Source: Eledone cirrhosa (lineage: Eukaryota). Taken from it: a DNA stretch of 64,000 bases. The notes below the pieces were generated by a model that saw nothing but the letters and a program-made list of their open reading frames with translations, ran no database searches and had not been told where the DNA came from. Made by a program: the position numbers and the translations under genes. This document shows positions 4,004 through 61,882 of the stretch, in pieces; the first letter of the stretch is position 1; the number at the start of each line of letters is the position of its first letter. The stretch lies in contig OZ024740.1 in NCBI GenBank assembly GCA_964016885.1, positions 360,778,001-360,842,000 on the forward strand, given 5' to 3'.

Positions 4004-6634
4004 CTACAGAAACATAAAATATATACATATACTCACACATATATATATATGCATACACACACAAACACAGTTATTACACTCATCATGAGAAAGACAAACA
4101 ATAGATTGTAGAGAATGATGATAATATAGGCATTGATGAATATTGTGAAGAGAAATGGAGTCAAATGGTTGGGCCATGTGTTGATAAAAGTGACTGGGTG
4201 AGAGGTGTGATGAGAACAGAGTGTGATGATTGTTATGAAGAGAAATGGAGTGAGAGGGTTGGGTATGTGTTAAGGAAAGATGAAAATGACAGGTTGAGAC
4301 ATGGATAAAGATGAAAGAGACTGAATGTGACAACTAAAGATGATGGAAGAGAAAATGAAAGCCATGGGTAGGGGATACAGATGATATAGTAAAATAGAGC
4401 AGCTTATCATGGAGCCTGCAAGGTTGATTACTGTTTTAGTGGGGAAAACAGCCTTAAAACACTTCTACACAAACATAAGCATACATACATGCACATGCGT
4501 GTGTGCGTGCATGCACAGCATAATATCTAATAAGTGGTGAGAGAGCGCACTATATCTGTTGAAGAGCGATATAATTACTTCATTCCTATATTAAACAACA
4601 TTTATAAAGGTTACTTGCAAAAATCAAACTTTAATGAAGTTAACATATAATGTATGTGTGAAGACACAGTTCCTGAGGTTTGAAGAAATGCTTCTTCAGA
4701 CACAGTGTAATACGATCTGATTTCTGCATAAAACCAACAGGTAACCTTTACAGATCTTGTCGTATCATTTGTTATTACAGCTTACACCTATGTAGGTTTA
4801 GCTGGCCTGCTTTGAAGTTGTAGCTCATAGGAAGTTTCTTGGGTGTTTTCATGTAAAGCAATGTATAATGAAGCATCTTGCTCATGAATGCAATGCACTG
4901 CAAGGTCCAGTAATCAAACCCATAACCTTATGATTATAAGTCCATTGACCTAACCAAGTCAAGATACTTTAATATAAACCATATTAAACAGCTAGGTGAA
5001 CTGAGATTGTATAGAATTAAGTGTCCTATATGGTTATTTGAAATGCTGGATATAGTATTTGAATTATCAAAAGAAAGAACACATTAATGCAGACATAAAT
5101 AAACTATATCTTCCAAACAGCTTTGATGACTGATATTCTAGCTAGATTAAAGTTGGTCTTAAGATTAATAATAACAACAATACCTTCAGTGGATTTGAAC
5201 TGAAGACCTATGAGTTAGTAGTGCAATGTCATACCCACTCAGCAATTCCACCTTCTCTAACAGAATGACAACCTATAGATATGGAATAATAACATCCTAC
5301 AAAAACCTATACATCTAAGCAACAACATAGGGCAGTTATTCTGAGACTCAGGTCATTCCTTGTGATTCCAGGTTTCCTTAGTTCCTCCCCTATTTTTAAT
5401 TGTCATCTAGTAATTTTTCTCACCATTACACTTTTACAGTGTTAATTATTAAAATAATCTATTAAAGCAAATTTTATGAACTGTTAATTCAAGATCACAC
5501 TTAAAGTTGGGTACATTGGTATTTCATTTGATATTTACGCAATGTATACTATAGTTGGGCATATTGATATTTCATTTGATATATACACAATTCTTTCCCA
5601 ATTCATTCCTTGGCTAAAATTCCTTCTCTGGGAGACAAGTGCCTCCCTTTTAGGAATCACTGCTACAGAGGTTCTGAACCGGAGAGGAACAAAAGGGAAA
5701 TGAGAAGACTAGACACAAATGGAAGATACAGTGTTTCACAGTGCTGACATGCACATTTTCTTTCACACCAACAAGGACAAACATGTCACTTTATATTTTG
5801 AGGGTGATGTAGTGGCATTTGTTCATGTCCACTTTATGTTTTAAGTCCCAATTTTGCTGAATTTAACTTTTCCTCTCAGACTTCTAGAGTAGATAAAATA
5901 TGTACCAGTCAAATACTAGATTTTGAAAGCATGCAGCTTAGAGATTAGGGTGTTAGGTTCATGCTCTTAAGGTCATGGGTTAAATTCTTTGACCAGTGCA
6001 TTATGTCCTTCAGCAAGATACAATACATACAGTAAAGTGAAGTAAAAACTTTAATTATTAATGTGATGCAGTCATAATGAAATGAAGCTTTGTACTTTTC
6101 AAGAATACCTTAATGTAGTTGCATGTGGTACATGAGTTAAAGGGTCTGAAATTAATTTTTTGTGACCATAAAAATATATTATTTATGAAAATTTAAGCCA
6201 GGAGTTCCATGTATTCTTAATTCCCCCACAACCCACCCCCATTTACTGTTCAGGGCTATAGTCAGTGGTAGCACTGTAGATCTGATTGCTAAGCATGTAG
6301 CTTATCAGCTTGAGAGAGACTAACATCCCATCCAGGGAAGGTAACAACCTGCTTGTGAAATTAACATGTAAGTAGCTTAGTATTCCAGGCACATGTACCT
6401 TTAGCATAATTCATAGAGAGATTCAATGTGACACAATCTGTAGCAGATACATGGCATCTAATGAGCTTCCAAACAGTTTTAATCTACCCAGTTTCACTCT
6501 CAAGACTTATGTTGACCCAAGATGTCACACAGTCGAATCGAACCCAGAACCGGGTTGTTACAAAGCAAACTTCCTAGTCATTTGACCATGTAGCATCCAC
6601 TATCGTAATAATACTGCTAAGGGAAGATACTCAC

Positions 6635-10290: not shown

Positions 10291-10383
10291 ATTAAAAACC
10301 CAAACAATCCCTGCCGCCTAGCCTAAAACAAAATAAAAAAAACCCATTAGATGATCATTGCAATCCTCAAACTGAAAACATAC

Positions 10384-10974
10384 CTCCAATAAGAAGGCGC
10401 CTAACAATGTCAAGGTATCCGCAGCCACTAGCTATCATCAGTGCTGTGATCATCTGGAAATTATGAGCATCAACAAGGCAGTTGTGGTTCAGCAAAAGGT
10501 CGACCATCTGAAGGTTGTTGGTTCGAATTGCTGTCATCAATGGTGTCTCCACCTGGTCATTAGGAATGTCCACATCGCAACCATTGTTCAGCAGCATGCT
10601 AGCTACTTGCACAAAACCGTTCATGACAGCAGAATGCAGCGGGGTAGCACCATGCTCATTGCGACTATCTATGTCTGCAGAGTTCATGATGAGCACTTCA
10701 GCAACTTTGATGTAACCTTTTTGACAGGCTATGTTTAGTAAATTGTTGAGTCCTTGGTTGCAGCGGTTCACATCAGCTCCTTTCTGAAGAAGTGAACAAC
10801 AGATCTGGACATGACCGAGCTCAACGGCCACCTCAAGTGGAGTTTTTCTACGATATGGGAAATTAATATCAAGGACGGAATTACAGAGATTGAAGACACT
10901 GTTGAGGTCATCGCTTTCAATCGCATCAATCAATTGTCGGATCTGTTGTCGTTTCTGGCGCCTCAAGCGATAAT
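10384..10974 (-). CDS. Ankyrin-repeat protein, large exon (~5 ANK repeats)
   Basis: tttcttgcag|ATTATCGC...ATTGGAG|gtatgt; 591 nt, phase 1-1; TPLEVAVELGH, GATPLHSAVMNGF, ETPLMTAIRTNN and TALMIASGCGYLDIVRRLL ankyrin repeats. Confidence 0.95.
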
Positions 10975-11299
10975 CTGCAAGAAAAAAGAAAGAAAAGAAA
11001 AATGAAATTAGTAAGGATGGTGGTGAAATATCATTAATAAGGGTTTCTAACTTTGGTACAATAATCTACATTTTGAAAGGGAAAGTTATAGTTCATTCAA
11101 TGAATACCAAAATATGTGAATGCCACAATAAAATGCACCTAGTATAATCTACAAAGTGGTTGATGCTAGGTAACACACCAAGCCATAGAAAGCATATAAA
11201 ATATGGAAGGTATGAACAAGACATGATTCCCAAACCTATCTAATCTCAAACTGTGACAACCTTTCCAACCCATACCAACACGGAAAAACATTTAAAACT

Positions 11300-17967: not shown

Positions 17968-18760
17968 TGAGCACCCAGCCCACACTATAAAGTGATTGTG
18001 TTGGTATCACAACAAAAAGCACCCAGGCAACGCTGTAAAGTGGTCGTGTTGGTATCACAACAAAAAGCACCCAGCCCACACTGTAAAGTGGTTATGTTGG
18101 TATCACAGCAAAAAGCACCCAGCCCACACTGTAAAGTGGTTGTGTTGGTATCACAACAAAAAGCACCCAGGCCACACTGTAAAGTGGTCGTGTTGGTATC
18201 ATAACAATAAGCACCCAGCCCACACTGTAAAGTGGTCGTGTTGGTATCACAACAAAAAGCACCCAGCCCACACCGTAAAGTGGTCGTGTTGGTATCACAA
18301 CAATAAGCACCCAGCCCACACTGTAAAGTGGTCATGTTGGTATCACAACAAAAAGCACCCAGCCCACACTGTAAAGTGGTCATGTTGGTATCACAACAAA
18401 AAGCACCCAGCCCACACTGTAAAGTGGTTGTGTTGGTATCACAACAAAAAGCACCCAGCCCACACTGTAAAGTGGTCGTGTTGGTATCACAACAAAAAGC
18501 ACCCAGCCCACACTGTAAAGTGGTCATGTTGGTATCACAACAAAAAGCACCCAGCCCACACTGTAAATTGGTCGTGTTGGTATCACAACAATAAGCACCC
18601 AGCCCACACTGTAAAGTGGTCGTGTTGGTATCACAACAAAAAGCACCCAGCCCACACTGTAAAGTGGTCATGTTGGTATCACAACAAAAAGCACCCAGCC
18701 CACACTGTAAAGTGGTCGTGTTGGTATCACAACAAAAAGCACCCCACATACACTGTAAAT
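17968..18760. repeat. 48-bp minisatellite (~16 copies) derived from an RTE 3'UTR sub-repeat
   Basis: Unit CACTGTAAAGTGGTCGTGTTGGTATCACAACAAAAAGCACCCAGCCCA; runs directly into an RTE tail (18752-18928) ending (GAT)n. Confidence 0.95.
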
Positions 18761-19268
18761 GTGGTTGGCATTAGGAAGGTCATCCAGCCGTAGAAACCAA
18801 GCCAAAAACAGTTCTATAAGAACAGGACAAGGTCTCCTGGCCCGACTTTCCCCCAATATGACAACCAGTCTAACCCATGCTAGCATGGAAAATAGATGTT
18901 AAATAATGATGATGATGATTATGATGATGAAAGACATCTGAAACGTCTGAAACGTTAAGACTATTTTCTTCCTTATCAAGCATTAAAATTCATTATACTG
19001 TATCATTACCCTATGTTGTTTCTCCGTTAATTTTCGCATATATATTTATATACACACACACACACACAAACAAACAGACAGATATATCATATAGGTAATT
19101 ATGGGTTCACGTAAGTGCAAATTAACATGCAGCAAAAAAAAGTACCCAATACCATTAGGTAGAGTGGAAGAACATTCAAAACAGAGTCGGGGAGAGTCAA
19201 TACTCAGAGTTTCTCGTTCCCGTTCCTCGGGCGACAACTGTCAGAGCATCAACAACGAAAATTCAGTT

Positions 19269-29911: not shown

Positions 29912-32900
29912 GCACTCCTCTTTGTTTCGACCGCGGACGGCTAACATAAACCCCACCCCGCACCCTCCAAACGCAATCCAAAACTTCAGAGTTGGTACCA
30001 TAAATGTAGGCACCCTAAAGGGTCGCGCTAACGAGGTTGTAGAAATGCTTGAACATAAGGAGGTCGATGTTTGTTGTATTCAAGAGACCAGGTGGAGGGG
30101 TGGGTCTGCTAGATTCATTGAGGGTAAAAAACGATGTTATAAGCTTTTCTGGGTGGGAAACGACGATGGGCTGGGTGGAGTAGGAATCATGGTAGTAGAA
30201 AAGTGGGCAGATAAGATAATAGACGTAAATAGAGTGAACGACAGAATAATTAAAATACGACTTGTCCTCAATAGAACTACGGTGACAGTAATATCTGCGT
30301 ATGCACCCCAATCCGGACTGGCCGGCACTATAAAAGACAGATTCTATGAGACACTGATGCTCACTACCTCCCAAATAACCGACAGTGACTATATAATTAT
30401 TGCTGGCGACCTAAATGGTCACGTTGGACAACATTGTGACGGCTACGACGAAATCCATGGAGGCTATGGGTTTGGTACTAGAAATGAGGAAGGCTCCAGA
30501 ATCCTGGAATTCTGTGACGCAAATAACCTAACTATCTGTAACACTAACTTCAAAAAAACGTGACAATCACCTGATCACCTATAGATCCGGGGAACACACA
30601 AGCCAGGTAGATTATATCCTTACCAGAAGACGTGACAGAGTGTCTGTTGTAAACACTAAATCCCTCCCCCATGAAGAATGCACCTCCCAACATAGACTGA
30701 TAATTAGCGACCTCATAGTCAGAACGAGATGTACTCGACAGCAGAAGAGGACTATCCTCAGGAGAAAAATATGGAAGCTAAAGGACCCCACAGCCAGAAA
30801 TAAATTTCAAAGCATATTACTTGATGCTTTCGACAGTAAGGAAGAGCATTTAAAGTCGGACAATATAGAGAGACAGTGGGAATTTCTGAAAGCAAACCTG
30901 CTGATGGCGACAGACGAAGTCTGTGGCTGGAGCAGGCCAGTAGGCAGGAGGAGAGTAACATGGTGGTGGAACAGTAAGGTGGAGGGGTCAATTAAGGCCA
31001 AAAAGCAGGCTTGGAAAGTATGGCGGGATGGGGGAAGTAGAGAAGACTATCAAGTGGCCAGGAGGGAAGCTAGGAGACAAGTGTACTTCGCAAGAAGGGA
31101 AGCAGAGGAAAGAAAGTTCAAGCATGTTCTACAACGCGAGGACCAAAAACGTGAGGTGTTCAGGATTGCTAGGCAATGTGTCAAGGAAAACCGTGATATT
31201 GTCGGGGAGAAGTGTGTACTTAATGATGACGGCGTACTTGCCATCACCGACGCTGATAAGAAGGTAGCTTGGAAGTGTCACTATGAAAGGCTACTAAATG
31301 AGGAGAATAAATGGGAGAAAGACAGTCTCCCCCACATCGACCCAATAGAGGGACCAGCAGTGTTAGTCGAGGGGAGTATAATAAGTAAGGCAACCAAGGA
31401 TATGAAGACGGGTAAGGCGGCTGGGCCTTCGGAAATAGTCGCTGAGATGCTGAAGGCATCTGGCACGGTGGGACACACCATGGTCACCCGCATAGTTAAC
31501 CAAGTCATACAGAATGGGGTTGTTCCGAAGGACTGGCATAGCAGCATCATCGTTAACTGTTATAAGGGTAAAGGAGATGCCCTAGATAGGAGTAACTATA
31601 GAGGCATTAAATTAATCGACCAGGTCATGAAGGTCACGGAAAAAGTAATAGCGCAACTAATCAGAGAGAGAATTGACCTAGATGAAATGCAGTTCGGGTT
31701 TGTGTCAGGCAAAAGTACCACAGACGCTCTTTTCATTGTATGACAACTACAGGAGAAGTACCTAGCTAAAGGTAAACCCCTCTACTTAGCTTTTGTCGAC
31801 TTGGAGAAAGCCTTCGACAGAGTCCCCCACTCCATTATCTGGTGGGCTCTTAGAAAACTAGGTGTTGACAATGGCTTGTGAGAGCGATACAAGCCATGTA
31901 TAAAGAAACAGTCAGCAAGGTTAGAATTAACAACGAACATAGTGAAGAGTTTAGCGTAAAAGTTGGCGTCCATCAGGGCTCTGTTCTCAGCCCCCTACTA
32001 TTTATTATTGCCCTTCAGGCTATAACAGAGGAGTTCAAGACCGGCTGCCCATGGGAACTCCTATACGCAGACGACCTGACACTCATAGCTGAATCAATGG
32101 CCGAGCTAGAGAAGAAATTCCAAACATGGAAGCATGGCCTAGAATCAAAAGGACTTAAAATTAATCTGGCTAAGACTAAAGTTCTAGTTTGTAGGAAAGA
32201 AAATAAGGCGGCGGTCCCTTCTGGGAAATGGCCATGCTCAGTGTGTAGGAAAGGCATAGGTAGAAACTCCATTTTATGTCCCAAATGCAAAGTATGGGTG
32301 CATAAAAGATGTAGTGGGATCACAGGTAAGCTAACTAAGAACATAGATTTTACATGTGGCCGGTGCTCTGGTGCAATAAGTAGCAGCAAGTGCCCACAAA
32401 ATACTAGCTTTTAAAACTGCGCAGAGGGCTCTATAGAAATAGTGGACAGCTTCCGTTACCTGGGTGACAAAATCAGCAGTGGGGGAGGGTGCTCAGAAAG
32501 TACAGTAGCTAGAGTCAGAACTGGATGGAAAAAGTTCAGAGAGCTTATACCACTATTAGCTGCTAAAGGGTTCTCTCTAAAAATGAAAGGCAGGTTGTAT
32601 GATGCCTGCATACGAACAGCAATGTTGCATGGCAGTGAGACCTGGGCATTGTGTGCAGAGGATATACGCAGACTAGAGAGGAATGAAGCTTGCATGCTCC
32701 GCTGGATGTGTAACAGTAATATACGTGAACGGCAAAGCATAAACGAACTAAGGAAAAAATTAGAAATAAGAGGGATCAGATGTTGTTTACTCGAGAGAAG
32801 GCTACGTTGGTATTGACACGTGATGCGCATGAAAGTCGATAGCTGTATAACAAAGTGCAGGGCAATAAAGATAGACGGTAGCCACGGAATAGGCAGACCT

Positions 32901-41427: not shown

Positions 41428-43597
41428 TTACATGACAACTTACTGCAGGCTACTGATGAAACTTGTGGATAGAGCAGAGCTCCAACCAGACAGAGAGTGA
41501 CCTGGTGGAGGAACAGCACAGTAGATAGGGCCATTAGAGACAAAAGACTAGCATGGAAGGCTTGGAAAAAGGGTGGGAGTAGAGAAGGATATACAGCCAC
41601 TAAGAGAGAAGCTAGACGTCAGGTGTACTTAGCACGCAGAGAGGCTGAGAGTAGGAGGTTTGCCAATGTTCTGCGACGGGAAGATCAGAGGCGTGCAGTG
41701 TTCCACATTGCAAGGCAGTGTGTCAATGCAAATCAGGATGTTGTTGGAGATAAATGTGTCCGGAATGATGCCGGTGTACTTAGTGTCACGAATGATCAGA
41801 AAAAGGAGGCCTGGAAATGTCATGATGAATGTGGAGAACGAATGGGAGAGAGAGAAATTACCCTCAGTAGATGCGACAGAGGGACCAGCTATTGAGATTG
41901 ACGAATATAGGGTCCAAGAGGCGATTAAGGAAATGCTGGACCGTCGGGGATAGTTGCTGAGATGCTGAAGGCATCAGGGGACGTAGGCACTAAACTGGTT
42001 GCACGCATCATCAATCAGGCTATATATGGTGGTGTCATACCCAAAGACTGGTGCAGCAGTATTCTCATAAATTGCTACAAAGGTAAAGGGGATGCTCTGG
42101 AGAGGAGCAATTATAGGGGTATAAAACTGATGGATCAGGTTATGAAAGTGACAGAAAGGATATTAGCACAACTAATTAGAGAAAGGGTCAAACTAGATGA
42201 GATGCAGTTTGGTTTTGTGCCTAGGAAAAGTACAACAGATGCCCTCTTCTTGGTGAGACAATTACAAGAGAGGTTCTTAGAGAAGAATAAGCCACTATAC
42301 TTAGCCTTTGTTGACCTAGAGAAGGCCTTTGATAGGGTACCCCGATCTGTCATCTGGTAGTCCCTAAGGAAACTAGGTGTTGAGGAATGGCTCGTGAGGA
42401 CAGTGCAAACTTTGTACAGAGGTTCTGTCAGTAAAGTCAGGGTAGGAATGGAGTTTAGTGAGGAATTCCAGATACAAGTAGGAGTACATCAAGGTTCGGT
42501 CCTCAGCCCGTTCTTGTTCATTATAGTCCTCCAAGCCATAATAGAGGAGTTACGACTGGCTGTCCATGGGAACTTCTCTATGCTGACGATCTGGTTCTTA
42601 TAGCAGAATCAGTAAAGGAGCTAGAGAATAAATTCTGGCTATGGAAACAGAAGTTGGAAGCAAGAGGACTGAGAGTGAACCTAGCTAAGACAAAAGTGTT
42701 GATGAGTAGAAAAGAGGACAAAACTCTGATTCCGCCAGGGAAATGGTCATGTTCGATATGCAGAAAAGGAACTGGCATAAATTCTATAAAATGCACACAA
42801 TGCAGATCCTGGGTACACAAGAGATGTAGTGGGATAGCAGGCAAACTAACAGGTAGGGAGAAATACGTATGCAGTAGATGTACAGGGAAATTAGCCAGTA
42901 GAAGTCGCATTGATAGATGCATTTTTCAATTGCAGGCGGGTGCTATAGAAGTGGTGGATAGCTTCTGCTACCTAGGAGATCAGATTAGTATGGGAGGGGG
43001 GGGGGGGGGGGTGTTCCGAGGCCATAGTATCTAGAATAAGGACGGGTTGGAAGAAGTTTAGGCAGCTGCTTCCTCTGCTGATGAAGAATGGTTTCTCCCT
43101 GCATACAAAAGGCCGGTTATATGCCTGTGTGAGGAGCGCGATGCTGCATGGTAGTGAGACATGGGCAGCAACTGCAGAGGATATGCGATGGCTGGAGAGA
43201 AATGACGCAAGCATGCTCCGTTGGATGTGCAATGTCAATGTGCGTGAACGACCCAGCATGAATGTGTTGAGAGAGAAACTGTGTCTGAGAGGGATAGAAT
43301 GTAGTGTGCAAGAGAGGAGACTGAGGTGGTATGGACATGTGATGTGCATGGAGGATGACCGATGGGTGAAGAACTGCAAGGAAATGGCAGTTGAAGGAAG
43401 ACGTGGTAGAGGTAGACCACGAAAAACATGGGCAGAGGTGGTGAGAACAGACCTCAGATCGCTGAAGCTCACGGTGGAGATGACGAAGGACCGTGACAAG
43501 TGGAGAGATGCTGTGTTGAATAAGACCCATCCCACCCTTGCAAGCAGGGAAAAGCGGACATAAAACGACGATGATGATGATGATGATGATGATGATA
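41428..43597 (+). mobile_element. 5'-truncated RTE LINE, second family (short 3' tail)
   Basis: RT ORF pieces 41497-43563 including LAFVDLEKAFDRVP, YADD, the Cys/His finger and MLHGSETW; the ORF runs to ...LASREKRT* directly before (GAT)n. Confidence 0.9.
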
Positions 43598-44138: not shown

Positions 44139-44254
44139 ATATGAAAACATTCAGGACCCCAACGGATGAGCTCCGGCCATTTCGACAGCTAGATCCGGAT
44201 CTAGCTGTTGAAACGGCTGGAGCTCAGCCGTCGGGGACCTGAATCTTTTCATAT
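44139..44254. repeat. Fold-back palindrome (58-bp arms, no loop)
   Basis: Centre CAGCTAGATCC|GGATCTAGCTG with several mismatches in the arms. Confidence 0.85.
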
Positions 44255-45014: not shown

Positions 45015-45646
45015 AATTATCATCACTACACTGTTTAATGTCTATTTTCCATGCTTGCATTGGTTAGATGGGTTGTCACATTCTGAGGACAGATAAATTA
45101 GGTGACCACATCTTGTGCATACATCGATTTTGGCTTGGTTTCTATAGCTGGATGAACTGTATATGTATGCATGTGTGTGTGTGTATATATATATATATAT
45201 ACACATAAAGTGGTTGGGAGGACCCTTCAGTTTGCGTCAAAAGACATGACAACTTTTCCTCTGCAGTCGATAGAACATATGACCATATATAAGTGAGATG
45301 CAGACACCTCAGCCACTCTGGGAAGTTCGTAGCCCTGCTTCAGTACTGACATAGTCTATGTAGGCCTGTCCAACCCTTACTAGCAGGGAAAGCAGACATT
45401 AAACAATGATGATAATACTTTTGCAAATGTACATCGTATTTGAATTCATCACAGAAGAACAATTCATTATACCATGACTAAGATAGTAACTTAACAAATG
45501 GCTCTTGTATAAAATTATGTTAGAAGATTCTAATTTAAATAGGAACCCTTTAAAATGTGTGGCTTTGTTTCATAGGACCAGAACCAGCTTTAGTCAGTTT
45601 GGTATTAAAAGTGTTAATAATAGAAATATGTAAAGAGGTTACCCAC

Positions 45647-45741
45647 TGGCTTAAATGTGTTCCAAGTTCTGCTAAAGTTGCTTCTTGTTCTTCAACTGTT
45701 TGTTGAAGATGTAAATGGGATCTCTCCAGGCATGTATATCC
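45647..45741 (-). CDS. RUFY2: RUFY1/2-like coiled-coil exon
   Basis: tctatacag|GGATATACA...TTAAGCCA|gtgggt; GYTCLERSHLHLQQTVEEQEATLAELGTHLSQ; phase 0-2 fits the neighbouring exons. Confidence 0.9.
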
Positions 45742-46270
45742 CTGTATAGACGAAATAAAGGAAAACAAATAAAAAATGAGGGACCTTGCTATGCAATTGT
45801 TTGACCTGCTAGAAATGGCAGCAAAAACCTCACTCAAATCTCACCATTTCACAAAAGGAAGGACACCCTGAATAGTGCAGTCCTAGATGCAAAAACACAC
45901 ACTCAGCCTCCGGACTCTGCACGCCCCCTCTCCCCCACCCTCTCCATCCACATGCGCGCGCACACACACACACACTGTCTTACACTGGTTTCCCTATTAC
46001 CTGAACATGGAACCTCGTTCTTCCTCAAACTCTCACATTCACATCCACACACTCACACACATGTACACCTACACACACACCACCTTCCGCCCTCCCCGCT
46101 CGGACCCCCTGTCTCCCTCTCCACCCACCCACCCACCACCACCCCTACACGCCTCACACCCTTTCACCACTTGTTTCATTTTAATTTTGTTTACCCTCTA
46201 CCCCCCCCCCCTTAATGTCTTTCCACCCCCACCCACCCCAGACCCTCTGAACTCTTTTCCTGGCCACTTT

Positions 46271-46298
46271 TTTCCTGATGAAGGGCTTGCCCGAAACG
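46271..46298 (+). ncRNA. Partial hammerhead core in a probable PLE 3' end (~45890-46400)
   Basis: CTGATGA-AGGGC tt GCCC-GAAAC; the 3' strand of stems III/I is replaced by a C-run. Upstream LRTLH...PYYLN resembles PLE C-termini. Confidence 0.45.
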
Positions 46299-46664
46299 CC
46301 CCCCCCCCACTCTCAAGCGTGAACCTAATATTAACACTTTGTACTGCCTCTTCGCTTCGTTTTTGTTTTTTTATTTTCTGTTTTAACTATAATATATAAA
46401 CGGAAAAAATGAAACGAAATTTCATTTCCCACTCTTAGTACGGCTGTTACTTAAATATAAGTATGTATACGTACATACATATATGTATACAGACGTACAG
46501 TAGTATGTATATATATATAGATACATGCACACATACATATATGTACGTATGGATTCACCAAACATTTATTATAATGCTCGGTGTTTTTGTAAACAAACAT
46601 CCCATATTAAGCCGTAGTGTCTAGCAACCACCGTTGCTCGTTTGTTCAACACTGACAAAGGAAC

Positions 46665-46703
46665 GCTGTACTAGTTTCAAGCTTGTTAGCTATCATCAGC
46701 AAC
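46665..46703 (-). ncRNA. Minimal type I hammerhead ribozyme motif
   Basis: GTTG-CTGATGA-TAGCT aaca AGCTT-GAAAC-TA-GTA|CAGC; sense with respect to the RUFY pre-mRNA. Confidence 0.75.
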
Positions 46704-46730
46704 GTATACCTTCCTGTCAACTATCTGGCA

Positions 46731-46769
46731 GTTGCTGACGAAAGCTAACAAGCTTGAAACTAGTACAGC
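46731..46769 (+). ncRNA. Minimal type I hammerhead ribozyme motif
   Basis: GTTG-CTGACGA-AAGCT aaca AGCTT-GAAAC-TA-GTA|CAGC; perfect 5-bp stem II, palindromic stem III (ACTAGT), GUA triplet, predicted cut after 46765. Confidence 0.8.
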
Positions 46770-47616
46770 GTTCCTTTGTCAGTGTTGAACAAACGAGCAA
46801 CGGTGGTTGTTAGACACTACGGCTTAATACAGGATGTTTGTTTACAAACACACCGAGCATTATAATAAATGTTTGGTGAATCCATACGTACATATATATA
46901 TGTGTGCATGTATGTATATATATATACATACTACTGTACGTCTGTATACATATATGTATGTATGTATACATACTTATATATAATATATATATATATATGC
47001 ATGTTTTATTTCTCCCCCTTTTTTCCTCATTTTCCCCCATTCCTTCCCCTTATCACTCTTTACTTTCCATTTATCTTCTATTTCTAACTCTATCTTCTGA
47101 TGAGGGATTAGTGTCAGAAACGTTTAGACTCTTTTCCTTCTATTTCAAGTGTTAAACTAATATATTTCTTCCATGTACTGTGTGTGATGTTTGTTTTGTT
47201 ATTTCTGTTTACCTTTTACATATATATACACACAAGCACTTTACATCCTGACATGCTGTAATAGTTTAACATAAAATACCTAAAAACAGGTAGGTTTGTG
47301 AATTCAAATGTTTATAGTATCTTTAGTTGTGAACAGATTGTGAAAATTTGCAGTATTAGAGTGAAGACTTTAATTTCAACAGGATGTAATCATAGTGCTG
47401 CTTTGCACTTTTCAAAAATATCTTGCTAATATGGTTTTGTGTGGTATAGGACATTAAAAATGAATAATATATAATTATCAGAAGTAAGAAAACACTGTTT
47501 ATCACTTGATCAAAAAATATAACCATAAAGGTTAAAAGAGAATGTGGACCCTCTGTTGTCAGACAAAAATAAGTGATGTGCATGTGTAATGAAATAGAAG
47601 AAAACATTTAAAATAC

Positions 47617-47746
47617 TTTTTGAATTTCTTTCATTTGTTGTAACTCCATCTGTACCAGTGTGACATTATGTCGCTCTTGCTCAAGAGTTTTTTGCAGTGT
47701 ACCCCTCCATTCTCGCTCAATTCGCAGATCTGTTTCAAGTGCCGTC
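47617..47746 (-). CDS. RUFY2: RUFY1/2-like coiled-coil exon (most 5' exon confidently found)
   Basis: ttttatag|GACGGCACTT...ATTCAAAAA|gtattt; TALETDLRIEREWRGTLQKTLEQERHNVTLVQMELQQMKEIQK matches the RUFY-family LETDL.IE.EWR..LQ motif. Confidence 0.9.
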
Positions 47747-48145
47747 CTATAAAAAAGTACATAAAAAAAGAAAGAAAACAATTGAAACTGGATGCAAAGA
47801 TTTACCACTTGAAAGACAATTGAACAAAGTCTTTTATATTTTATGTTCTATAAGCAAACTTTGTCTTTAATCCTTTCGAAGTTGATAAAGTACCAGTTCA
47901 GTACTGGCATCAATTCTTCTTCTATACCTCTTTATCACCCCCTCTCTCTCTCTTTTTCATTCATTCCCTCTCGGTCTGCTTCTTCTCTGGAAGAAACCAG
48001 CTGTGTTCAGACCTGGAGAGAGATGAACACCACCAGGCTCAAATGCCCAAGATCTGTCATATGCCATGATGGCACTCTTATGACTCCATCAAGAGTCCAC
48101 TCTTCATTTATTCATTCTTTAAGTATCAGAACAATTAATACTAGT

Positions 48146-60156: not shown

Positions 60157-61882
60157 AAATTGATCTAGACGAAATGCAGTTTGGGTTTGTGTTGGGTAAA
60201 AGTACCACAGACGACCTTTTCCTTGTACGACAACTGTGGGAGAAGTACCTAGCTAAAAGTAAACCCCTATACTTAGCTTTTGTTGACTTGGAGAAAGCAT
60301 TTGACGGAGTCCCCCGTGCCATTATCTGGTGGGCCCTTAGAAAACTAGGGGTTGATGAATGGCTTGTGAGAGCTATACAAGCCATGTATAAAGAAACAGT
60401 CAGCAAGGTTAGAATTAACAACGAATATAGTGAAGAATTTAGCGTAAAAGTTGGTATCCATCAGGGCTCTGTCTTTAGCCCCCTCCTATTTATTATTGCC
60501 CTTCAGGCTATAATAGAGGAGTTCAAGCCCGGCTGCCCATGGGACTTCTCTATGCAGATGATCTAACACTCATAGCTGAATTGATGGCTGAACTAGAGAA
60601 GAAATTCCAAACATGGAAGCATGGCCTAGAACCAAAAGGCCTTAAAGTTAACTTGTCTAAGACTAAAGTTCTAGTATATAGGAAGGAAAATAGAGCACAG
60701 GTCCCCTCTGGGAAATGGCCATGCTCAGTGTGTAGGAAAGGAGTAGGCAGAAATTCCATTTTATGTCCCAAATGCAAAGTATGGGTGCATAAAAGATGTA
60801 GTGGGATCACAGGTAAGCTATCTAACAACGTAGATTTTATATGTGGCCAGTGCTCAGGTACAATAAGTAGCAAGCGCCCATAGGATACTAGCTCGTTCTA
60901 TTGCCCAGATGGCTCTATAGAAATGGTGGACACCTTCCGTTACTTGGGTGACAAAATCAGCAGTGGTGGAGGGTGCTCTGAAAGTACAGTAGCTAGAGTC
61001 AGAACTGGATGGAAAAAGTTCAGAGAGCTTATACCACTATTGGCCACTAAAGGTCTCTCTCTAAAAATGAAAGGCAGACTGTATGATGCCTGCATACGAA
61101 CAGCTATGTTACATGGCAGTGAGACATGGGCATTGTGTGCAGAGGATCTGCAGGAATGAAGCATGCATGCTCCGCTGGATGTGTAATAGTAATATACGTG
61201 AACAGCAAAGCATAAATGAACTAAGTGAGAAATTAGGTATAAGAGGGAGCAGATGCTGTTTACTCGAGAGAAGACTACGTTGGTATGGTCACGTGATGCG
61301 CATGAAAGACGACAGCTGTATAAAAAAAGTGCAGGGCGATCAAAATTGACGGAATTTACGGAGTAGGCAGACCCAGAAAAACCTGGGATGGTTTGATAAA
61401 TTCCAACCTTACACACTTACACCTCTCTAAGACAATGTCACTGGACCGAGATCTTTGGCGCTACGCAGTAATACAGAAAACCTGACTTGCCTAAGTACAA
61501 AGCGAAATCTACAGTCAGTAGGCACCTCTTAACCAAATATACACCCGTTTCACTCCCCCACCCCACCCCCATCAATACCACCCCTTTCTCTGTAAAGTTA
61601 TGTTGGTACCACAACATCCAGTCCTAAATAAATGAGGTTGTGTAGGTGTCACGACAAAAAACACACAGTCCACGCTGTAATGTGGCCGTGTAGGTTACAC
61701 GGTAAAAACCTCCCAGTCCACACTGTAAACGTGGTTGGTGTTAGGAAGGGCATCCAGCCGTAGAAAACCTGCCAGACAGTCCCATACGAGTGAGACGACC
61801 AATCTTGCCTCAAGTGGGACAATTCCCGTCTAAACCCATGCTAGTGTGGAAGATAGATGTTAAACGATGATGATGATGATGA
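60157..61882 (+). mobile_element. 5'-truncated RTE LINE (same family as 29912-33385)
   Basis: Collinear with 31670-33380, including the Cys/His finger and 3'UTR; ends (GAT)n(TA)n. Confidence 0.9.

What the first reader, a model, noticed from the sequence alone, without database searches (positions are those of the whole stretch)
46455..46980. Twin hammerheads in an inverted repeat inside a RUFY intron
Both arms end inward in a textbook minimal hammerhead (GTTG-CTGANGA-stem II-GAAAC-TA-GTA|CAGC). The two copies differ at the variable core position 7 (T vs C) and the first stem II base. The minus copy (46665-46703) is sense in the RUFY pre-mRNA, in the 1.9-kb intron before the last coiled-coil and FYVE exons. 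Cleavage could uncouple the FYVE-coding exons (inference), whereas the ~250-bp duplex would block it.
Basis: partly seen in the sequence, partly recalled or inferred. Interest (0 to 1): 0.75.

Follow-up and report, generated by a model that had tools for sequence, protein, structure and literature searches.

The report
Self-locked hammerhead retrozyme in octopus intron
This is one ordinary copy of a small non-coding repeat with a hammerhead-ribozyme motif, present thousands of times in this octopus genome and likely pasted into the RUFY intron as two mirror-image arms by a Penelope-type jumping-gene enzyme; the arms are predicted to pair and keep the ribozyme shut, so it is likely not a switch for the gene.

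Summary
The inverted repeat, both hammerhead motifs, their cleavage coordinates and the 1,875-nt RUFY intron are real. The site is not a RUFY-specific device. It is a 584-bp insertion (46396-46979) of a 420-433-nt non-LTR retrozyme whose 35-nt ribozyme pattern occurs 7,662 times in the genome. Head-to-head pairs are the family's usual form: 34 of 62 sampled insertions, none tail-to-tail; 37 loci have twin ribozymes 20-50 nt apart. The arms end at two fixed family sites 59 nt apart, run into TA repeats and have a 7-bp flanking duplication, which matches the Penelope-like 'tail' footprint. In RUFY pre-mRNA the antisense arm is transcribed first, and the ribozyme fold costs 47-55 kcal/mol. The motif is also of a type reported to need a partner copy. 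A spliced contig joins the flanking exons exactly. Not shown: cleavage, the mobilising Penelope family, the template's form, or an empty site. The scan found this family before on other DNA (e1-8665316). New member of a known kind; interest low.

The parts
46396..46719 (-). Long arm of the retrozyme insertion; starts about 50 nt upstream of the scissile site and ends at the family's outer 3' site (monomer position 275)
   Evidence: 95% BLAST match to a family monomer
46717..46979 (+). Short arm; ends at the family's inner 3' site (monomer position 216)
46396..46454 (-). 59-nt 'tail' present on one arm only; contains a predicted hairpin just before the 3' end
   Evidence: same asymmetry at other loci
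46653..46719 (-). Type I hammerhead with extended helix I (core 46665-46703; predicted cut 46669/46668; U.U at the base of helix II; palindromic helix III). Sense in RUFY pre-mRNA
   Evidence: predicted to be sequestered
46731..46769 (+). Second hammerhead core (predicted cut 46765/46766), antisense to RUFY; lacks 11 nt of the upstream helix I strand
46704..46730 (.). 27-nt loop: junction of the two arms' 5' ends, made wholly of family sequence from just upstream of the ribozyme
46389..46395 (+). Left copy of probable 7-bp target-site duplication (interrupted TA repeat)
46980..46986 (+). Right copy of probable 7-bp target-site duplication
47617..47746 (-). RUFY coding exon upstream of the host intron
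45647..45741 (-). RUFY coding exon downstream of the host intron
45742..47616 (-). Host intron, 1,875 nt; the insert lies about 640 nt from either splice site
   Evidence: spliced joint in a contig of run X4

Best explanation
The site is a 584-bp, two-armed copy of an abundant non-coding hammerhead repeat (a non-LTR retrozyme), likely inserted by a Penelope-like element's protein and predicted to be catalytically shut inside RUFY pre-mRNA. SHOWN: the family, its 420-433-nt unit, the head-to-head geometry, the two fixed 3' ends 59 nt apart, the TA target, the 7-bp flanking duplication, and exact splicing of the intron in one contig. INFERRED mechanism: (1) a retrozyme RNA is bound in trans by a Penelope-like RT/GIY-YIG protein; (2) the enzyme nicks both strands of a TA tract about 7 bp apart; (3) each nick primes reverse transcription at one of two internal start sites flanking the 59-nt tail, as shown in vitro for the anole element; (4) both cDNAs run through the scissile site, so the template was uncleaved or circular, and they stop 15-30 nt upstream of the core; (5) repair joins the two ends, leaving a palindrome. 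Since then each arm has collected about 2% private substitutions. In RUFY pre-mRNA the antisense arm is made first and would pair with the ribozyme as it emerges. The likely host-level effect is nil or a 250-bp intronic double strand open to A-to-I editing (untested).
For: 7,662 exact 35-nt matches, reversed control 0; 17,259 matches to a sister-subfamily pattern. 50 units of 420-433 nt between cleavage sites. Census of all 61 loci behind the first 100 hits: 62 insertions, 34 two-armed with 3' ends outward, 0 convergent, 28 one-armed. Of the 34, 17 have one end at 216 and one at 275, none has two at 216, 2 have two at 275, and 15 have one end at neither by k-mers; 5 of those 15 resolve to 216+275 by BLAST or motif. 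59 of 70 such ends abut TA repeats. 7-bp duplication here, 6-bp at L049. Both arms share a T found in 0 of 51 census arms; arms of different loci share a rare variant in 30 of 1,265 pairs. RT+GIY-YIG elements are abundant (10,597 candidates, 150 scored), several families end in TA repeats, and one shows two 3' ends about 60 nt apart (1 locus vs 5). Published: both strands cut and extended, two internal RT starts equal the tail (PMC11167929); inverted 5' copy and one-sided tail typical of these elements (PMC8557442). Folding: hammerhead fold costs 55.3 kcal/mol in context, 46.6 in the nascent chain, 1.4 without the antisense arm. Spliced joint 45740/47616, no differences, depth 48.
Against: No autonomous element sharing this repeat's sequence was found among 46 GIY-YIG loci. 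The two that hold the repeat (L081, L100) have it as a separate insert beyond a TA tract (the BLAST print was cut). The tail is 59 nt, against the published 30-40. Opposite arms shared a rare variant at only 1 of 10 census loci where this could be tested, so the one-template argument rests on few sites. Most target duplications are unreadable in pure TA. The census is one contig and requires an intact 35-mer; one locus (L115) duplicates another. ViennaRNA cannot model the 2-nt loop of helix III or kinetics. Run X4's type is not on record and its individual may lack the insertion.
Confidence: 0.85

Rival explanations
1. Domesticated regulatory ribozyme: the sense hammerhead cuts RUFY pre-mRNA and uncouples the last coiled-coil/FYVE exons, with the antisense arm (or its editing or unwinding) as the switch.
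For: The sense copy has an intact core and an extended helix I, and is predicted to fold when isolated (helix I probability 0.72). Intronic ribozymes with host effects are in print (Cpeb3, PMC10919898, listing and abstract start only).
Against: Predicted 47-55 kcal/mol barrier with the antisense arm transcribed first. Monomers of this architecture cleave poorly (PMC4209133 part 2, PMC7229834 section 15). The only other sense family copy in the gene is 80 kb upstream. Each arm has 3 private changes in 158 nt, as for neutral decay. This subfamily alone has about an 18% chance of landing in a 165-kb gene. Exact splicing.
Confidence: 0.03
2. Same retrozyme family, but the palindrome arose by another route: one primed cDNA folding back or switching template, or a later DNA-level inversion or duplication of a single-armed copy.
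For: The junction has a small deletion and a 3-nt overlap, as expected of template switching or repair. The arms share a rare variant, which fold-back copying also predicts.
Against: A fold-back or inversion would not set the second arm's 3' end at a fixed family site with its own TA flank. One-armed copies also end at either site (12 at 275, 5 at 216, 11 elsewhere, of 28), which fits two independent priming sites. No convergent arrangement among 62.
Confidence: 0.08
3. A MITE-like DNA transposon with long terminal inverted repeats.
For: 250-bp inverted arms and a short flanking duplication.
Against: Arm lengths and junctions differ at every locus, arms often hold several tandem units, the two ends are asymmetric and 28 of 62 insertions have one arm. 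Helix I pairing is kept through U.G, G.U and A-U across subfamilies, pointing to selection on RNA.
Confidence: 0.02
4. Assembly or long-read fold-back artefact.
For: No listed contig spans the junction with unique flank.
Against: The arms differ at 9 of 249 positions, only one has the tail, the junction is asymmetric, and a target duplication flanks the whole. 36 other loci have different close junctions.
Confidence: 0.02

Closest known systems
Metazoan non-LTR retrozymes (Cervera and de la Pena 2020, PMC7229834; Li, Clavereau and Pollet 2026, 10.64898/2026.07.22.740005)
   Same: Non-coding tandem units with one type I hammerhead each, thousands of copies, low GC, coexisting with Penelope-like elements. 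U.U at the base of helix II as in axolotl HHR_Amex2. Intronic copies are common (43.9% in X. tropicalis).
   Different: Unit slightly longer (420-433 nt vs about 170-400). More than half of the sampled insertions are two-armed with fixed Penelope-type ends; the word 'inverted' has 0 hits in the 2020 text and one, in a reference title, in the 2026 text. This copy holds less than one full unit per arm. Circular RNA and cleavage are not shown here.
Penelope-like element insertions (Craig et al. 2021, PMC8557442; Frangieh et al. 2024, PMC11167929; Cervera and de la Pena 2014, PMC4209133)
   Same: Inverted 5'-truncated copy next to the main copy, tail on one end only, AT-rich or microsatellite target, hammerhead with palindromic helix III. 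Opposite-strand hammerhead pairs 100-700 bp apart were already reported in Schistosoma.
   Different: No RT/endonuclease ORF; tail 59 nt rather than 30-40; hammerhead of canonical proportions (6-bp helix I, 4-bp helix II) rather than the minimal type; partner element not identified.
Domesticated intronic ribozymes (ultraconserved amniote hammerheads, title only seen in a reference list; Cpeb3 ribozyme, PMC10919898, listing only)
   Same: Self-cleaving motif sense within a host intron.
   Different: Those are single-copy and conserved (recalled, not tested). This one is a young member of a high-copy mobile family, decaying, and locked by its own mirror image.

Membership tests
Type I hammerhead ribozyme | Core CUGANGA / GAAA / NUH with helices I-III | tested here: met
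   Both copies; helix II 4-5 bp; helix III 2 bp with a palindromic 2-nt loop. Rfam gathering scan negative.
Type I hammerhead ribozyme | Helix pairing kept by covariation | tested here: met
   One helix I pair is G.U in 8, U.G in 4, A-U in 3 of 15 sequences; 97 of 100 listed sister copies keep that pair (counted by eye). These reflect a few subfamily-level events.
Type I hammerhead ribozyme | Self-cleavage | not testable with these tools
   No assay; predicted blocked at this locus.
Non-LTR retrozyme | Short tandem units, one type I hammerhead each, high copy | tested here: met
   50 units of 420-433 nt; 7,662 motif copies. Met for the family; this locus has under one unit per arm.
Non-LTR retrozyme | Non-coding, no LTR-type structure | tested here: met
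   Only low-complexity spurious frames of 72-91 aa overlap the insert; ends are TA-flanked and asymmetric.
Non-LTR retrozyme | Expressed as monomeric linear and circular RNA | not testable with these tools
   Needs northern blot or RNase R-treated reads.
Non-LTR retrozyme | Coexisting Penelope-like elements | tested here: met
   RT plus C-terminal GIY-YIG ORFs in the same genome.
Penelope-like insertion footprint | Inverted 5'-truncated copy adjacent to main copy, 3' ends outward | tested here: met
   This locus and 34 of 62 census insertions; 0 convergent.
Penelope-like insertion footprint | Tail at one end only | tested here: met
   59 nt here; at least 22 of 34 two-armed loci. Longer than the published 30-40 nt.
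Penelope-like insertion footprint | AT-rich or microsatellite target | tested here: met
   59 of 70 fixed ends abut TA repeats.
Autonomous Penelope-like element | RT + GIY-YIG ORF | tested here: not met
   None in the insert.
Autonomous Penelope-like element | Repeat is the pLTR of a coding element | tested here: inconclusive
   Not seen in 46 GIY-YIG loci out of 10,597 candidates.
Domesticated intronic ribozyme | Locus-specific conservation across species | tested here: inconclusive
   No listed contig of another organism bridges the site; private substitutions in both arms argue against.
MITE / DNA transposon | Fixed symmetric terminal inverted repeats shared by all copies | tested here: not met
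   Variable arms, asymmetric ends, 28 of 62 one-armed.

The most novel reading that the evidence does not exclude
A Penelope-like enzyme dimer copies one uncleaved or circular retrozyme RNA from both sides of a DNA break, and the resulting head-to-head geometry silences the ribozyme in any host read-through transcript. Two-armed copies would then be tolerated in introns, while unlocked sense copies are selected against. This locus, where both arms run through the scissile site and stop just upstream of the ribozyme, would be the minimal self-locked product.
Probability: 0.25. Interest if true: 0.55.

Novelty: new member of a known kind. Interest (0 to 1): 0.25.

Why it matters
For RUFY it most likely does not matter. 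It is a useful negative: a textbook-looking intronic ribozyme that is one of thousands of mobile copies and is predicted to be shut. The family matters somewhat more. Retrozymes are proposed to borrow Penelope-like machinery on grounds of co-occurrence and phylogeny (10.64898/2026.07.22.740005). Fixed start sites 59 nt apart and two-armed insertions are a direct insertion footprint for that proposal, and give exact positions for an in vitro test with the system of PMC11167929. Searches for 'non-LTR retrozyme + inverted + tail' gave 0 papers; 'hammerhead ribozyme + octopus + retrotransposon' and 'octopus + Penelope + hammerhead' listed no study of octopus retrozymes. The library lacks most subscription journals.

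Tried and rejected
Rfam gathering scan of the window: 0 hits. Search for the autonomous partner: 46 GIY-YIG loci (30 best hits plus 16 chosen for long frames, of 150 scored); the repeat was seen in L081 and L100 only, beyond TA tracts, and read as separate insertions; the BLAST print was cut at 5,000 characters, while the motif scan covered all 46. Sequencing runs: no RNA holder listed. Empty-site search: 8 of 15 listed runs laid; no listed contig or read bridges the insertion site, so presence/absence is untested. Editing scars in genomic copies (lead from e1-8803865): 13 A>G vs 8 T>C on 49 A and 44 T positions, no clear excess. Pile-up of 5' ends at the cleavage site, expected for a cleaved linear template: 1 of 90 segment ends within positions 425-8, and that one is an alignment break. 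Target duplications: of 49 rows many are false internal motif hits or pure TA; 3 were flagged informative, and L006 was dropped as off-register. Co-folding two isolated cores favoured a non-catalytic duplex over the dimeric hammerhead (-21.3 vs -11.2 kcal/mol for the minus copy); isolated 39-mers are a poor model, so this was not used. Pfam gave no family for the two coiled-coil exons. Look-ups of earlier findings near the site and by sequence returned nothing. Supplements of the 2026 preprint were not seen and might list related families.

Full report
OBSERVATION. The inverted repeat is real: arms 46451-46703 and 46731-46983, 96% complementary, 27 nt apart, with 10 mismatches, one beyond the true arm end. 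Rfam reports nothing at its gathering thresholds. The host gene is RUFY on the minus strand. The upstream exon is 98% identical to Octopus RUFY2-like proteins, the last exon's best solved relative is the RUFY1 FYVE domain, RUN-domain matches lie about 155 kb upstream on the same strand, and 12 exon matches span window coordinates 208,646 to 37,852. A 626-nt contig of run X4 joins 45740 to 47616, skipping 1,875 nt with GT..AG ends on the minus strand and no differences. The run's type is not on record, and its individual may or may not carry the insert.

WHAT IT IS. The arm is a repeat. A 35-nt pattern over the ribozyme has 7,662 exact matches in the 3.0-Gb genome, reversed control 0; a pattern for sister subfamilies has 17,259. 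Tandem arrays give 50 units of 420-433 nt from cleavage site to cleavage site. I fetched all 61 loci behind the first 100 matches. They hold 62 insertions: 34 two-armed with both 3' ends outward, none convergent, 28 one-armed. Ten of the 61 loci have the exact ribozyme pattern head to head within 1 kb and none tail to tail. Genome-wide, 37 loci including this one have twin ribozymes only 20-50 nt apart, each with a different junction. The twin arrangement is therefore the family's ordinary insertion form.

ENDS. Arms stop at two fixed monomer positions, 216 and 275. Of the 34 two-armed loci, 17 have one of each, none has two at 216, 2 have two at 275, and 15 have one end at neither by the k-mer test; 5 of the 15 resolve to 216+275 by BLAST or motif (L031, L120, L140; L119, L127). 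One locus (L115) duplicates another. 59 of 70 fixed ends abut TA repeats. In the window the minus arm ends at 275 (46396) and the plus arm at 216 (46979), so the insert is 584 bp with a 59-nt one-sided tail, and a 7-bp interrupted-TA word is repeated on both flanks. An inverted 5'-truncated copy, a one-sided tail and microsatellite bias are described for Penelope-like elements (PMC8557442, passages). The anole element's protein cuts and extends both target strands and starts reverse transcription at two internal sites whose interval is the tail, mainly on unprocessed RNA (PMC11167929, parts 1-2 of 4). The genome has many RT+GIY-YIG elements. Their cysteine linker resembles the Neptune/Nematis type as described; no tree was built. 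One such family shows two 3' ends about 60 nt apart (1 locus vs 5, counted by eye). None of 46 loci examined carries this repeat as its own terminal repeat, so the partner is unidentified.

TEMPLATE AND AGE. Over a 158-nt segment both arms share two subfamily markers and one T seen in 0 of 51 census arms, whereas arms of different loci share a rare variant in 30 of 1,265 pairs. This fits one template, but opposite arms shared a rare variant at only 1 of 10 testable census loci. Each arm has 3 private changes (about 2%). Both arms extend 5' through the scissile site, and census 5' ends do not pile up there, so the template was likely uncleaved or circular (inference).

THE RIBOZYME. The family motif has a 6-bp helix I continued by an interrupted stem, a 4-bp helix II on a U.U mismatch, and a 2-bp palindromic helix III. 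One helix I pair is G.U, U.G or A-U in 8, 4 and 3 of 15 sequences, which suggests selection on the fold at family level. The same U.U is reported for axolotl HHR_Amex2, whose monomer cleaves weakly and dimer well (PMC7229834, passages and sections 14-15). An unstable helix III is reported to require a second copy, and opposite-strand pairs 100-700 bp apart were seen in Schistosoma (PMC4209133, parts 1-2 of 4). In isolation the minus copy is predicted to form helix I (probability 0.72) and the plus copy, which lost 11 nt, is not (0.0).

IN THE RUFY TRANSCRIPT. The minus-strand transcript makes the antisense arm first. Forcing helices I and II costs 55.3 kcal/mol in context and 46.6 when the chain ends at the ribozyme's last base, against 1.4 without the antisense arm (helix III and kinetics not modelled). 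The only other sense family copy in the gene lies 80 kb upstream in another intron; it is one-armed and not predicted to be locked (1.5 kcal/mol). At 1.2 loci per Mb this subfamily alone has about an 18% chance of hitting a 165-kb gene. In Xenopus 43.9% of retrozyme copies are intronic, and 8 of 9 tested dimers did not cleave (10.64898/2026.07.22.740005, parts 1-3 of 5). A RUFY switch is not excluded by experiment but nothing supports it (3%).

COMPARISON AND NOVELTY. It works like a Penelope-like insertion and the family meets the testable features of a non-LTR retrozyme; cleavage and circular RNA could not be tested. I found no paper on octopus retrozymes or on tails and inverted arms in retrozymes, within a library that lacks most subscription journals. 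Earlier notes of this scan describe the same 422-nt family and similar ones in this genome. I had the two fixed ends before that look-up; the reading of copying from both sides of a break came from e1-8665316 and PMC11167929, and I tested the ends, not the circle.

VERDICT. Observation confirmed, regulatory reading unsupported. New member of a known kind; interest 0.25.

Noticed in passing
G000:C1:360,904,723-360,905,100 (L149; window-equivalent 126,723-127,100), minus strand: A second, older (87%) one-armed family copy, sense in a RUFY intron, with intact core and GUU triplet, not predicted to be locked (1.5 kcal/mol). A better candidate than the present site for testing intronic cleavage.
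   Followed up: partly
window 46220-46395 and 47000-47230 (+): The insert sits in the TA tract between two other repeats, each with a hammerhead-like core (46275, 47097), antisense to RUFY; high contig depth marks them as multi-copy.
   Followed up: no
window 44139-44254: 116-nt near-perfect palindrome (58-nt arms, no spacer); similar sequence lies beside L095, so probably another repeat's inversion junction.
   Followed up: no
window 19971 (-) and 20136 (+); also 11325, 54221, 62905: Another head-to-head pair of hammerhead-like cores from a different family, and further single cores.
   Followed up: no
census loci; window 46731: 10 of 90 segment 5' ends fall in monomer positions 392-405, the 5' edge of the ribozyme, against 8 in the 52 nt upstream; the window's plus arm also breaks there. 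Possibly an RT stop at helix I, but the sample was chosen for an intact ribozyme.
   Followed up: partly
runs X6, X7, X11 laid on window 45500-47800: Other organisms hold close copies of the repeat: X6 has 5 differences in 144 nt of repeat but 18 in 143 nt of RUFY exon; X7 has a 389-nt contig with a tandem joint and no RUFY exon among its 5 laid records. Horizontal transfer, strong constraint or contamination; not resolved.
   Followed up: no
L090, L101 downstream of the ORF: An autonomous RT+GIY-YIG family carries a hammerhead-like motif with the same U.U at the base of helix II as this retrozyme.
   Followed up: no
L008 and L115 (G000:C1:19,620,300-19,626,473): Two adjacent two-armed insertions with identical junctions: a local duplication of one event.
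   Followed up: no
window 29913-32816, 41473-43563, 60159-61349: Broken endonuclease/RT LINE-like frames around and within RUFY; 17985-18793 holds a long tandem repeat; an ankyrin-repeat-like exon at 10367-11065 (-) (labels recalled, not tested).
   Followed up: no
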